Positions 14,647 through 17,629 of a DNA stretch of 32,202 nt are shown piece by piece. Position 1 is the first letter of the stretch; the number at the start of each line of letters is the position of its first letter. Made by a program: the position numbers and the translations under genes. The stretch covers positions 1-32,202 of the forward strand of contig CANGGA010000001.1 in the NCBI GenBank assembly GCA_947453285.1, given 5' to 3'. Origin of the DNA: Microbacteriaceae bacterium. Lineage in GTDB: Bacteria; Actinomycetota; Actinomycetes; Actinomycetales; Microbacteriaceae. Under the pieces are notes generated by a model. It was not told where the DNA came from and did no database searches. It saw only the letters and a list, made by a program, of their open reading frames with translations.

Positions 14647-14904
14647 ATGAAACCCGTTAGAACCTGTGTTGGCTGTCGCCAGCGCGCCAATCGAGCAGAT
14701 TTGCTTCGAATTGTGGCCGACTCTCAAGAGTTGGTTTTCGATGAGAAAGCCTCAAAACCTGGTCGCGGCGCCTGGATTCATCCAAGTTCAGATTGTCTTC
14801 AAAAAGCCACAGAGCGCGGTGCATTTGCCCGAGCATTGCGGCTAAAGACCCCGCTAACTCTCAATCAAGAACAGGCAGAAACGATGATGGCAAAAAATGA
14901 GTAA
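14647..14904 (+). CDS. ylxR: YlxR/DUF448 family RNA-binding protein
   Basis: PVRTCVGCR, LLRIV, PGRGAWIH..DC and AFARALR; canonical position between nusA and infB. Confidence 0.9.
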   Translation: MKPVRTCVGCRQRANRADLLRIVADSQELVFDEKASKPGRGAWIHPSSDCLQKATERGAFARALRLKTPLTLNQEQAETMMAKNE

Positions 14905-14974
14905 CTCGAAATGAGTCCCCTCAAGCTTTAACGGCCTGCCCTGTTTGGGGAAGGCCCCAGACAGGAGAAATTAA
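14884..14974 (+). promoter_or_regulatory. infB leader: overlapping mini-ORF chain plus SD-sequestering and alternative hairpins (candidate translational attenuator)
   Basis: Mini-ORFs 14897-14914 (MSNSK*) and 14911-14931 (MSPLKL*) are joined by ATGA. Hairpin 14940-14965 pairs part of the SD AGGAG (14963-14967), and an alternative hairpin spans 14933-14956. Confidence 0.55.
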
Positions 14975-17629
14975 GTGGCGCTTCCACGCGTATACGACAT
15001 AGCTAAAGAACTTGGAATCGATTCCAAGGTTGCACTAGCAAAACTTCAAGAACTCGGTGAGTTCGTTAAGAGTGGTTCATCAACGATCACTCCACCCGTA
15101 GCCAAAAAGCTTCGCGAGGCATTTCCAGATGCAAAGCCAAAGGCCGAAGAGCCTAAGAAGCCGGCTGCAAAGAAGTCTGCAGACAAGGCAGAGCCAGAAG
15201 TAACTGCCGAAAGCGCAGACGCACCTGCAGCTCCGAAGCCAGGCAAAGCTGCAAAGCCGGCCGAAGCTGAGCCGGTTGCAGAAAAGCCAAGCGAGGGCGA
15301 TGCCCCGGCAGCCGCTCCGACACCAAGTCTTCCTTCACCGGTTGCAGGCATTCCTCGCCCGGGCAACAATCCTTTTGCATCGAGTCAGGGCATGGGCATT
15401 CCTCGTCCGGTAGCTCGTCCTGGCAATAATCCATTCGCACCTTCGCAGGGCATGGGTCGTCCGGGTCAGAACCGACCAGGTGGACCTCGTCCTGCCGGTG
15501 CCGGTGCCCCAGGTGGCGCGGGTCGCCCAGGTGGACCTCGTCCAGCCGGTGCCGGTGGTCCAGGTGGCGCATCGCGTCCAGGTTTCGGCAGCCCTCGTCC
15601 GAGTGGCGCTCCAGGCGCAACTCCGGGTGGCGCACCAGGTTTTGCTCGTCCAGGTGGCGGCCCAGGTGGCGGCCGTGGCCGCGGCGTTGGCGGCGGAACC
15701 GCTGGTGCCTTCGGTAAGGGTGGCGGCAAGGGCAGCAAGGCCCGCAAGTCAAAGCGTGCGAAACGCGAAGAGTACGAACAGAGACAGGCTCCGAGCCTTG
15801 GTGGCGCAGTAGTTCCACGCGGAGACGGCACCACCGTAATTCGCTTGCGTCGCGGTTCTAGCATCCAAGATTTCGCAGACAAGATTGATGCAAATGCAGG
15901 TCAGTTGATCACGGTGTTGTTCCACCTTGGTCAGATGACAACGGCTACCGCATCGCTAGACGAAGAGACCTTCCAGATTCTCGGTGTTGAACTCGGCTAC
16001 AAGGTCGAAGTTGTTTCACCTGAAGACGAAGAGAAGGAGCTATTCGATAGCTTCGGCCTCGACATCTCAACCGACTACGAAGACGACGAAGACGATCTAG
16101 TTATTCGTCCGCCAGTTGTCACCGTCATGGGTCACGTCGACCACGGAAAGACTCGTTTGCTCGACTCGATTCGAAATGCAAACGTTCAGGCCGGTGAAGC
16201 TGGTGGAATCACCCAGCACATTGGTGCTTATCAGGTGCACGCAGTGCACGAGGGCATCGACCGTGCGATTACATTCATCGATACTCCTGGTCACGAGGCG
16301 TTCACCGCTATGCGTGCCCGTGGTGCTCAGGTAACCGACATTGCGATTCTTGTTGTCGCTGCAGACGACGGCGTTATGCCTCAGACTGTCGAAGCGTTGA
16401 ACCACGCTCAGTCTGCCGGTGTGCCGATTGTTGTTGCAGTTAACAAGACCGATAAAGAAGGCGCTAACCCAGCCAAGATTCGTCAGCAGCTAACCGAGTT
16501 CAACTTGGTTGCTGAAGAATACGGTGGCGACGTCATGTTCATCGACGTATCGGCTTTGACCGGCAAGGGAATTCCAGAACTTCTAGACGCAGTCTTGCTA
16601 ACCGCAGATGCAGCCCTAGACCTTCGCGCGAACCCAAACCGCGACGCTCGTGGTGTTGCCATCGAAGCGAACCTAGACAAGGGTCGCGGTTCGGTTGCTA
16701 CCGTGCTGATTCAGTCGGGAACCCTTGAGGTTGGCGACTCGATCGTGGCAGGTGCTGCTCACGGCCGTGTTCGTGCGATGTTCGACGAGAACGGCGACGC
16801 AGTTACTTCTGCTGGCCCAAGCCGTCCGGTTCAGGTGCTCGGATTGCAGTCTGTGCCTCGCGCCGGTGACACCTTTGTGGTCGCCGAAGACGAGCGCCAG
16901 GCCCGCCAGATCGCTGAAAAGCGTGAGGCTGCCGACCGCAACGCCCTATTGGCTAAGACCCGCAAGCGCATCAGCCTCGAAGACTTCACCAAGGCACTCG
17001 AAGACGGCAAGGTTGAGTCACTCAACTTGGTCATCAAGGGTGACGTTTCTGGTGCGGTCGAAGCTCTTGAAGATGCATTGCTCAAGATCGAAGTCGACGA
17101 CAGCGTTCAGTTGCGCATTATCCACCGTGGTGTTGGTGCAATTACCGAGTCAGACGTTAACTTGGCAACCGTTGATAACGCAATCATCATCGGCTTCAAC
17201 GTCAAGCCAGACAACAAGGCTCGCGAGCGTGCAGACCGCGAAGGCGTCGACATTCGTCAGTACTCAGTTATCTATGGAGTTCTCGACGACATCGAGTTGG
17301 CGCTCAAGGGAATGCTCAAGCCAGAGTATGAAGAAGTTCAGGTCGGAACCGCAGAGGTTCGCGAGCTGTTCAAGTCTTCAAAGGTCGGAACCATCGCTGG
17401 TTCGATCGTTCGCTCTGGTTCAATCAAGCGCAACGCTTTGGCGCGCGTTCTTCGTGCCGGCAAGGTCATTGCCGAAAACCAGAAGATCGACTCACTAAAG
17501 CGCTTCAAGGATGATGCCAACGAAGTCAAGACTGACTTCGAGTGTGGTATCGGTTTGAGCGACTTCAACGAATTGCAACTCGAGGACATCATTGAGACCT
17601 TCGAGATGCGCGAGAAGCCGAGAGTCTAA
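14975..17629 (+). CDS. infB: Translation initiation factor IF-2
   Basis: [11 protein letters not shown]-domain, Pro/Gly-rich linker, [48 protein letters not shown] and [11 protein letters not shown] start with SD AGGAG. Confidence 0.98.
15347..15570 (+). repeat. Coding repeats in the IF2 Pro/Gly-rich linker
   Basis: Two copies of [14 protein letters not shown] and two of [11 protein letters not shown] (DNA CCAGGTGGACCTCGTCCxGCCGGTGCCGGTG twice). Confidence 0.8.

What the first reader, a model, noticed from the sequence alone, without database searches (positions are those of the whole stretch)
14871..14977. Candidate IF2 translational attenuator: relay of overlapping mini-ORFs feeding a two-state SD-sequestering switch upstream of infB
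Seen in sequence: the 70-nt ylxR-infB spacer is fully structured. ylxR ends ATG ATG GCA AAA AAT GAG TAA (14884-14904), preceded by a weak SD-like ACAGGCAG. Mini-ORF A (14897-14914, MSNSK*) starts inside that end. Mini-ORF B (14911-14931, MSPLKL*) overlaps A's stop as ATGA, and both begin ATGAGT. The three ORFs use all three frames. Directly after B's stop, two mutually exclusive hairpins are possible. H1 (GGCCT 14933-37 with AGGCC 14952-56, plus CCC/GGG) leaves the SD free. H2 (CCTGTTTGGGG 14940-50 with CCCCAGACAGG 14955-65; 11 bp, one G-U) buries the AGG of the infB SD (AGGAG 14963-67). Established: ATGA overlaps mediate termination-reinitiation, and IF2 delivers fMet-tRNA at initiation. Inference: serial re-initiation could sense IF2 or fMet-tRNA availability, and a ribosome at B's stop would cover the 5' arm of H1 and shift the H1/H2 balance, giving infB autoregulation. 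I recall similar ATGA chains upstream of infB in other Actinobacteria but cannot verify this here, and I know of no description of it as a regulatory system.
Basis: partly seen in the sequence, partly recalled or inferred. Interest (0 to 1): 0.72.

Follow-up and report, generated by a model that had tools for sequence, protein, structure and literature searches.

The report
Mini-gene relay switch before infB
Just ahead of the gene for translation initiation factor IF2, this genome and nearly all sampled relatives of its bacterial class keep three tiny stop/start-overlapping reading frames followed by an RNA stretch predicted to fold either open or shut over the IF2 ribosome-binding site, which likely lets the cell's ability to restart translation turn IF2 synthesis down.

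Summary
The element is real and class-wide. Coordinates hold, with two slips: the ylxR tail and mini-ORF B share one frame, and only the 3' 46 nt fold better than shuffles. Three coupled mini-ORFs precede infB in 116 of 120 genomes of the class, against about 1% of shuffles and 0 of 23 genomes of other classes. Lengths and overlaps are kept; peptides are not. Only ORF1 has a Shine-Dalgarno-like site. Hairpin H1 is present in 116 of 119 and starts 0-6 nt after the last stop. H2, which buries the SD, is order-restricted (54 of 61 against 9 of 58). Elsewhere H1's 3' arm pairs with infB codons 3-6, with covariation and codon bias. Two different OFF helices thus answer one ON hairpin. Best model (0.55): a ribosome finishing the relay melts H1 and closes the infB site, giving negative feedback on re-initiation, most simply on IF2. 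The sensed signal and the polarity are untested. Ten literature searches and Rfam found no description; five earlier notes of this scan report the same element.

The parts
14647..14904 (+). ylxR/rnpM-like gene; its last 7 codons double as mini-ORF1 in this genus
   Evidence: NCBIfam RnpM E 4.6e-17, below the curated cut-off; PF04296 over cut-off. ORF1 shares the ylxR stop in 18 of 18 genus loci and is separate from or coupled to ylxR in most other groups.
14869..14876 (+). Weak Shine-Dalgarno-like site for mini-ORF1 (GAACAGGC), inside ylxR
   Evidence: A motif of this type lies upstream of ORF1 in 86 of 116 relay genomes, mostly 9-10 nt before the start; median anti-SD duplex -3.6 (genus) to -6.7 (class) kcal/mol (anti-SD motif recalled).
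14884..14904 (+). Mini-ORF1 (MMAKNE*; second ATG at 14887), overlapping ORF2 by 8 nt
   Evidence: Sequence; counterpart of the free-standing 3-5-codon ORF1 of relatives, 108 of 116.
14897..14914 (+).
   Evidence: 5 sense codons in 107 of 116; 52 distinct peptides; median anti-SD duplex -1.5 to -3.0.
14911..14931 (+).
   Evidence: -4 overlap in 115 of 116; 5-6 sense codons in 108 of 116; 94 distinct peptides; TAA/TAG stop in 100 of 116.
14933..14956 (+). H1, predicted ON hairpin (leaves the infB SD free); its 5' arm lies directly after the ORF3 stop
   Evidence: -15.4 kcal/mol; hairpin of -12 or better in 116 of 119 genomes, first pair 0-6 nt after the stop in 117 of 119; compensatory changes.
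14940..14965 (+). H2, predicted OFF hairpin pairing the AGG of the infB SD; order-restricted form of the OFF state
   Evidence: -20.8 kcal/mol, z -5.0; SD paired in the blocked fold in 46 of 46 genus and family loci, 5' end 6-11 nt after the stop in 43 of 46.
14963..14967 (+). Strong Shine-Dalgarno of infB (AGGAG)
   Evidence: Sequence; median anti-SD duplex -7.4 to -8.2.
14975..17629 (+). infB (IF2), GTG start; followed by rbfA and truB
   Evidence: TIGR00487 E 2.6e-230.

Best explanation
This is a conserved cis-element made of three coupled mini-ORFs and a two-state RNA region in front of infB, and it likely works as a negative-feedback translational attenuator: a ribosome that restarts through all three ORFs would melt the ON hairpin and let an OFF helix close the infB ribosome-binding site. 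Shown from sequence comparison: ORF1 has an SD-like site and ORF2 and ORF3 do not; lengths and stop/start overlaps are kept while peptides drift; H1 starts right behind the ORF3 stop; an RBS-closing alternative is kept in two lineage-specific forms (H2 with the SD in the window's order, H3 with infB codons 3-6 elsewhere). Predicted: blocking the first 7-10 nt after the stop favours the OFF helix. Inferred: ORF2 and ORF3 are reached only by termination-re-initiation; two serial restarts make arrival at the ORF3 stop steeply dependent on restart efficiency; H1 folds first during transcription and persists if no ribosome arrives. High IF2 and fMet-tRNA (or low IF3) would then shut infB, and poor initiation would leave it open.
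For: Relay in 116 of 120 class genomes against 0.6-1.8% of shuffles. Consecutive RTGA words are spaced 2 mod 3 in 186 of 222 cases. Overlap type varies (-4 in 80, -1 in 27, -8 in 9) and start and stop codons vary, which fits translation and not a fixed binding motif. The relay stays with infB where ylxR was not found or lies 2.6 kb away (6 of 7 genomes with three or more ORFs, one with two). Blocking the post-stop bases raises the RBS opening energy by more than 1 kcal/mol in 111 of 119 and lowers it in 0; median rise 4.4-5.7 against 1.4-2.2 for hairpins with shuffled pairs. H3: 88% of cells paired, 17 double changes against 6.9 shuffled, 0 of 500. The Arg codon inside H3 is CGG in 80 of 80 loci against 1 of 160 other Arg codons nearby, and CGC in 32 of 34 in the family that uses H2. 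L156 keeps H1 and a 12-bp H3 with unrelated sequence; L167 keeps an enlarged H2. In E. coli, extra IF2 raised and extra IF3 lowered re-initiation (PMC2268962, abstract).
Against: No experiment shows regulation. In the window H2 beats H1 by about 5 kcal/mol with no ribosome, so ON needs kinetic trapping; the computed barrier of 18 kcal/mol is only an upper bound. In genus and family the result depends on the ribosome's reach: median SD opening is 4.0 free, 5.6-6.4 with 6 nt blocked, 4.3 with 9 nt and 0.8 with 12 nt, so a longer reach would open the site. At pair level H3 covariation is not above shuffles (3 pairs against 2.7), 9 of 57 rows break the key pair, and kin are not independent. M. tuberculosis Ribo-RET lists no initiation footprint between 3147900 and 3147999, so none for ORF2 or ORF3; the infB start was also not detected. 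Two genomes (L037, L045) have the relay and no hairpin; four have a long or fused last ORF. Nothing singles out IF2 from other steps of termination, recycling and restart.
Confidence: 0.55

Rival explanations
1. Positive coupling: the OFF helix is the resting state, and a ribosome ending ORF3 unwinds it or is handed on to infB, so the relay ties IF2 synthesis to upstream translation.
For: OFF is more stable than ON in the window and in 55 of 119 genomes. Blocking 12 nt opens the SD in genus and family. In other classes ylxR often overlaps the infB start directly. L156 has a GTG-started frame whose stop abuts the infB start. In L037 and L045 the last stop is 21 nt from the start, with no hairpin.
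Against: It leaves H1 without a role, yet H1 is the best-kept structure (116 of 119) and cannot coexist with a ribosome at the stop. H3 arms lie 15-25 nt or more past the stop and survive the block. H2 begins 6-11 nt after the stop, at about the edge of the ribosome's entry channel (recalled geometry). Positive feedback of IF2 on itself would be unstable (inference).
Confidence: 0.2
2. Same ON/OFF switch, but the sensed step is not IF2: release or recycling (RF2, RRF, EF-G, IF3), drop-off of very short peptidyl-tRNAs, immature 30S subunits (rbfA lies downstream), ppGpp or cold.
For: Each link of the relay needs termination and recycling as well as restart. ORF2 ends in TGA in 115 of 116 and its last codon is Arg or Lys in most; ORF3 avoids TGA while ylxR in the same genomes prefers it. 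IF3 excess lowered re-initiation in E. coli.
Against: The element sits directly on the infB start and travels with infB; no similar relay was seen before other long ORFs of this incomplete genome. The stop of ORF1 varies (TGA 90, TAA 23, TAG 3).
Confidence: 0.16
3. The element acts on transcription or mRNA fate: the relay keeps ribosomes on an otherwise naked leader and so sets Rho-dependent termination, pausing at H1, or cleavage.
For: Translated uORFs shape Rho-dependent termination in M. tuberculosis (bioRxiv 10.1101/2022.06.01.494293; search listing and one passage, infB not mentioned). A -10-like box at the ylxR start suggests transcripts with a long untranslated stretch.
Against: No terminator-like site on the + strand. 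Both OFF helices target the ribosome-binding site and not a U-tract. It does not explain selection on infB codons 3-6.
Confidence: 0.06
4. The ATGAG repeats are binding sites for a protein and are not translated.
For: ATGAG is kept beyond what the overlap alone demands (ORF2 codon 2 is AGC or AGT in 102 of 116). No ribosome footprints for ORF2 or ORF3.
Against: Spacing is 2 mod 3 in 186 of 222; overlaps switch between ATGA, GTGA, TAATG, TGATG and ATGAGTAA; ORF3 always closes with an in-frame stop at the hairpin foot.
Confidence: 0.03

Closest known systems
Leader-ORF translational attenuators (ermC/cat type; recalled, not from a call)
   Same: Short upstream ORF whose ribosome covers one arm of mutually exclusive hairpins and so sets access to the downstream RBS.
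   Different: Three serial ORFs, no conserved stall peptide, and the predicted input is arrival by re-initiation. The predicted effect of the ribosome is to close the site, not open it.
Termination-re-initiation coupling at RTGA overlaps; 'coupled' small ORFs of mycobacteria (PMC4633059, passages read)
   Same: RTGA stop/start overlaps; linkage conserved while the small protein is not.
   Different: There one small ORF overlaps the main gene's start. Here the chain ends 33-69 nt before infB in 113 of 116 genomes, at a hairpin, and infB has its own strong SD.
GCN4/ATF4 re-initiation control in eukaryotes (recalled)
   Same: Several tiny uORFs are proposed to read out initiator-tRNA delivery, so that poor re-initiation raises the main ORF.
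   Different: No scanning distance: starts overlap stops. The output is an RNA switch, and the target is the initiation factor itself.
Autoregulation of translation factors: infC by its AUU start, prfB by frameshifting (recalled)
   Same: A factor's own mRNA carries a device that reads the factor's activity.
   Different: No such device for IF2 turned up in my searches; the mechanism proposed here differs from both.
rimP-leader (PMC2965389, passages read)
   Same: Regulatory element of the rimP-nusA-infB operon.
   Different: It is a terminator hairpin 5' of rimP. This element is inside the operon, on the infB start, with no U-tract.

Membership tests
Leader-ORF translational attenuator (ermC/cat type) | Short ORF upstream of the regulated gene | tested here: met
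Leader-ORF translational attenuator (ermC/cat type) | Mutually exclusive structures, one occluding the RBS | tested here: met
   Predicted folds with comparative support. No probing data.
Leader-ORF translational attenuator (ermC/cat type) | Ribosome position overlaps one arm of the switch | tested here: met
   H1 starts 0-6 nt after the ORF3 stop in 117 of 119; footprints end 12 nt downstream of stop codons in PMC9094748.
Leader-ORF translational attenuator (ermC/cat type) | Conserved stall peptide or sensing codons | tested here: not met
   48, 52 and 94 distinct peptides in 116 genomes.
Leader-ORF translational attenuator (ermC/cat type) | Signal-dependent change of downstream translation | not testable with these tools
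   Needs reporters.
Termination-re-initiation coupled ORFs | Stop/start overlap | tested here: met
   -4, -1 or -8 at both junctions in 116 of 120.
Termination-re-initiation coupled ORFs | Downstream ORF lacks a strong independent SD | tested here: met
   ORF2 and ORF3 medians -1.5 to -3.0 kcal/mol against -7.4 to -8.2 for infB.
Termination-re-initiation coupled ORFs | Last small ORF overlaps the main gene's start | tested here: not met
   Last stop 21-69 nt before the infB start; 43 nt in the window.
Termination-re-initiation coupled ORFs | Re-initiation shown experimentally | not testable with these tools
   Published Ribo-RET table lists no footprint for ORF2 or ORF3, nor the infB start.
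GCN4-type re-initiation control | Several very short uORFs | tested here: met
GCN4-type re-initiation control | Scanning distance between uORFs that times initiator-tRNA reloading | tested here: not met
   Starts overlap the preceding stops.
GCN4-type re-initiation control | Main ORF rises when initiator-tRNA delivery falls | not testable with these tools
   Inferred only.
rimP-leader or any Rfam family | Match to a curated covariance model | tested here: not met
   0 matches at E up to 5 in 12500-19000.
rimP-leader or any Rfam family | Terminator hairpin with U-tract 5' of rimP | tested here: not met
   Element lies between ylxR and infB; no + strand terminator-like site in 14500-15100.

The most novel reading that the evidence does not exclude
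Actinomycetes, including Streptomyces and mycobacteria, autoregulate IF2 with a bacterial counterpart of GCN4 control: a class-wide relay of serial re-initiation events measures initiation capacity and flips an RNA switch on infB, and evolution has rebuilt the OFF helix at least once (coding-region pairing versus SD pairing) to keep that logic.
Probability: 0.5. Interest if true: 0.88.

Novelty: new variant of a known kind. Interest (0 to 1): 0.76.

Why it matters
Feedback devices are known for IF3 and RF2 (recalled), but my searches found none for IF2. If the model holds, a whole bacterial class uses serial re-initiation as a sensor, a principle so far associated with eukaryotic uORFs. The element is also a natural, compact test bed for the open question of whether bacterial stop/start overlaps work by true re-initiation: ORF2 and ORF3 have no SD and no conserved product, so their only evident purpose is the restart. 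The window adds the lineage that swapped the OFF helix, which is the best comparative argument that closing the RBS, and not one particular sequence, is what selection keeps.

Tried and rejected
Rfam: no match. Literature: ten full-text searches gave no description of the element; infB and IF2 terms were absent from the main text of PMC11109978, PMC8632094 and PMC9094748, and from bioRxiv 2022.06.01.494293 (infB only). The supplement of PMC11109978 could not be read, only one small supplementary file of PMC8632094 was held, one file of PMC4633059 was not searched, bioRxiv supplements are closed and subscription journals are missing, so a prior mention cannot be excluded. H2 as a class-wide structure: rejected (9 of 58 outside the order, 4.3 expected). 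The column alignment for H2 (A1) had register slips and was not used for pair counts; the anchored table shows mostly invariant pairs, few double changes and several C-A mismatches, and it leans on predicted folds. A first ON/OFF energy comparison (OFF better in 114 of 119) was unfair because ON was barred from folding downstream; redone. RNA runs: 24 holders with shares of 0.10 or less, contigs only; four laid show relatives' contigs matching from about 14867 onward but give no start, strand or level. Intrinsic terminator and sigma-70 promoter scan: nothing on the + strand. Earlier-findings look-ups by full word list and by place returned nothing. Paralogous relays in this genome: none convincing, genome 68% complete.
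Full report
Observation. The window reads proS, nusA, a ylxR/rnpM-like gene, infB, rbfA, truB. Two statements are wrong: the ylxR tail and mini-ORF B are in the same frame (27 nt apart), and only the 3' part of the spacer folds better than shuffles (z -3.44 against -1.29 for the whole). Rfam has no match.

Sampling. I took genomes by ylxR homology, not by the feature: 41 relatives, 71 of the class, 33 of the family and 46 of the phylum, with overlaps, and fetched 155 loci. Nine had no IF2 N-terminus in the locus and three were duplicates, leaving 143 genomes: 18 genus (with the window), 28 family, 15 order, 59 class, 23 other classes. The class is taken to be the Actinomycetes because Streptomyces loci carry the same element and one locus has the same ORF1 as M. 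tuberculosis. Kin are not independent.

The relay. With a strict rule (each ORF 2-10 codons; overlaps -4, -1 or -8; last stop 8-100 nt before infB) three or more linked ORFs occur in 116 of 120 class genomes and 0 of 23 others; shuffles give 0.6-1.8%, and 6 of 843 long ORFs of the window's genome. The four failures have a long or fused last ORF. ORF1 has 3-5 codons in 108, ORF2 five in 107 and ORF3 5-6 in 108 of 116. Peptides number 48, 52 and 94 distinct. The first junction is -4 in 80, -1 in 27 and -8 in 9; the second is -4 in 115. Independently of the chain rule, successive RTGA words are spaced 2 mod 3 in 186 of 222 cases. All 80 loci (79 Streptomyces) have the chain. ORF1 has a conserved SD-like site, ORF2 and ORF3 do not, infB has a strong one (anti-SD motif recalled). 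In the window's genus ORF1 has merged in frame with the end of ylxR (18 of 18) but keeps its SD-like site, and the relay is more conserved than ylxR or the start of infB (88% against 60% and 77%). Of ten genomes searched for IF2 separately, seven were analysed: six keep three or more linked ORFs and one keeps two, though ylxR was not found in six and lies 2.6 kb away in one. The element belongs to infB.

The switch. One genome with an ambiguous last stop was dropped, leaving 119. A hairpin of -12 kcal/mol or better lies between the last stop and the SD in 116; it starts 0-6 nt after the stop in 117 and shows compensatory changes (10 double changes against 3.2, 1 of 500). Extending the fold into infB showed why: elsewhere the 3' arm of H1 pairs with infB codons 3-6 (H3), enclosing SD and start codon. 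In the blocked fold, the SD is paired in 46 of 46 genus and family loci and the coding region in none; in other orders the coding region is paired in 53 of 58 and the SD in 8; the order shows both. Opening the whole RBS costs more than 1 kcal/mol extra in 111 of 119 and less in none, with medians of 4.4-5.7 against 1.4-2.2 for pair-shuffled hairpins. For H3, 67 genomes with a K-V/A/P-R-V start (6 skipped) pair 562 of 670 cells against 542 permuted, 0 of 5000. On an alignment of 57 of them (ten with long loops or divergent arms left out), 88% of cells pair, with 17 double changes against 6.9, but only 3 pairs against 2.7 expected. The Arg codon inside H3 is CGG in 80 of 80 loci against 1 of 160 other Arg codons, 49 of 68 against 25 of 164 in order and class, and CGC in 32 of 34 in the family that uses H2. 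L156 keeps both helices with unrelated sequence.

Mechanism. Shown: architecture, conservation, SD pattern, two forms of an RBS-closing helix. Predicted: the folds and their shift. Inferred: ORF2 and ORF3 are reached by re-initiation; H1 forms first during transcription; a ribosome at the ORF3 stop removes H1's 5' arm, so the OFF helix forms. ON and OFF lie within 3 kcal/mol in 73 of 119 genomes with computed barriers of 16-20 (medians, upper bounds), as a kinetic switch would need. In E. coli extra IF2 raised and extra IF3 lowered re-initiation (PMC2268962, abstract and section list only), which gives the right sign for negative feedback. I put this model at 0.55.

Against it. In the window H2 wins by about 5 kcal/mol without a ribosome. 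In genus and family a block of 12 nt would open the SD (median 0.8), so polarity rests on the ribosome's reach; published footprints end 12 nt downstream of stop codons (PMC9094748, passages), about 9 nt past the stop if counted from its first base (my reading), where the SD-only measure barely changes. L037 and L045 have no hairpin. L156 also has a frame whose stop abuts the infB start. In PMC9094748 Supplementary File 1A, the list of transcripts starting with RUG, the M. tuberculosis ORF1 (MSTP*, 3147962-3147948) appears as a putative novel leaderless ORF overlapping the ylxR stop; File 1B has no initiation footprint for ORF2 or ORF3, and the infB start was not detected either. That start site was not found in the tables searched of PMC4633059, which list one 278 nt before infB. 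Translation of the relay is therefore not shown.

Comparison and novelty. It works like a leader-ORF translational attenuator but fails the stall-peptide test; it uses termination-re-initiation overlaps but the last ORF does not overlap infB; it resembles GCN4 control in logic only (recalled). It is not the rimP-leader (PMC2965389, passages). Ten searches found no description; other papers in those lists were seen as listings only, and PMC7157823 and PMC9031893 as passages. Unread supplements of motif-discovery papers could hold a mention. Five earlier AI notes of this scan describe the same element in other genomes, two of them with the H3 pairing (seen after my own analysis); they are not independent evidence, and they mean the element is not new to the scan. 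What this window adds is the lineage in which H2 replaces H3.

Verdict. Real, class-wide, apparently undescribed regulatory element; new variant of translational attenuation with a plausible new input; interest 0.76.

Noticed in passing
window 14643-14649: A -10-like box (TAGAAT) overlaps the ylxR ATG. A TANNNT box lies here in 44 of 44 genus and family loci examined, with ATG over it in 41, CTG in 2 and GTG in 1. This suggests an internal promoter whose RNA starts inside ylxR and lacks its start codon. In 22 of 52 class loci such a box precedes an in-frame RTG at leaderless spacing.
   Followed up: partly
window 14591-14640: Stable hairpin between nusA and ylxR (-23.6 kcal/mol for 14591-14660, z -3.38), with no U-tract; possible pause, processing or stabilising structure.
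   Followed up: no
L130-L155 (other classes of the phylum): No relay; in many of these genomes the ylxR stop overlaps the infB start directly by 4 nt. The relay looks like an insertion into an ancestrally coupled junction.
   Followed up: partly
L037:227-253 and L045:304-330: Relay intact but hairpin absent; the ORF3 stop is 21 nt before the infB start, so a terminating ribosome could cover the SD directly.
   Followed up: no
L035, L040, L053 upstream of infB: One genus has replaced ORF2/ORF3 by a longer last ORF of 23 or more codons that still ends at the hairpin foot.
   Followed up: no
L156:1400-1522: Two-ORF chain, H1 that includes the stop codon, a 12-bp H3 of unrelated sequence, and a GTG-started frame ending immediately before the infB start.
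   Followed up: partly
ORF3 stop across 116 genomes: TAA or TAG in 100 of 116, while ylxR in the order and class samples ends mostly in TGA (49 of 64). Unexplained; may avoid a further restart or reflect release-factor choice.
   Followed up: no
L024/L046 (G032): Relay and SD are present but the infB N-terminus is missing right after the SD; possible assembly collapse.
   Followed up: no
window 14972-14977: An in-frame TAA stands immediately before the infB start codon (also in L002, L003, L004, L006); not conserved across the genus.
   Followed up: no
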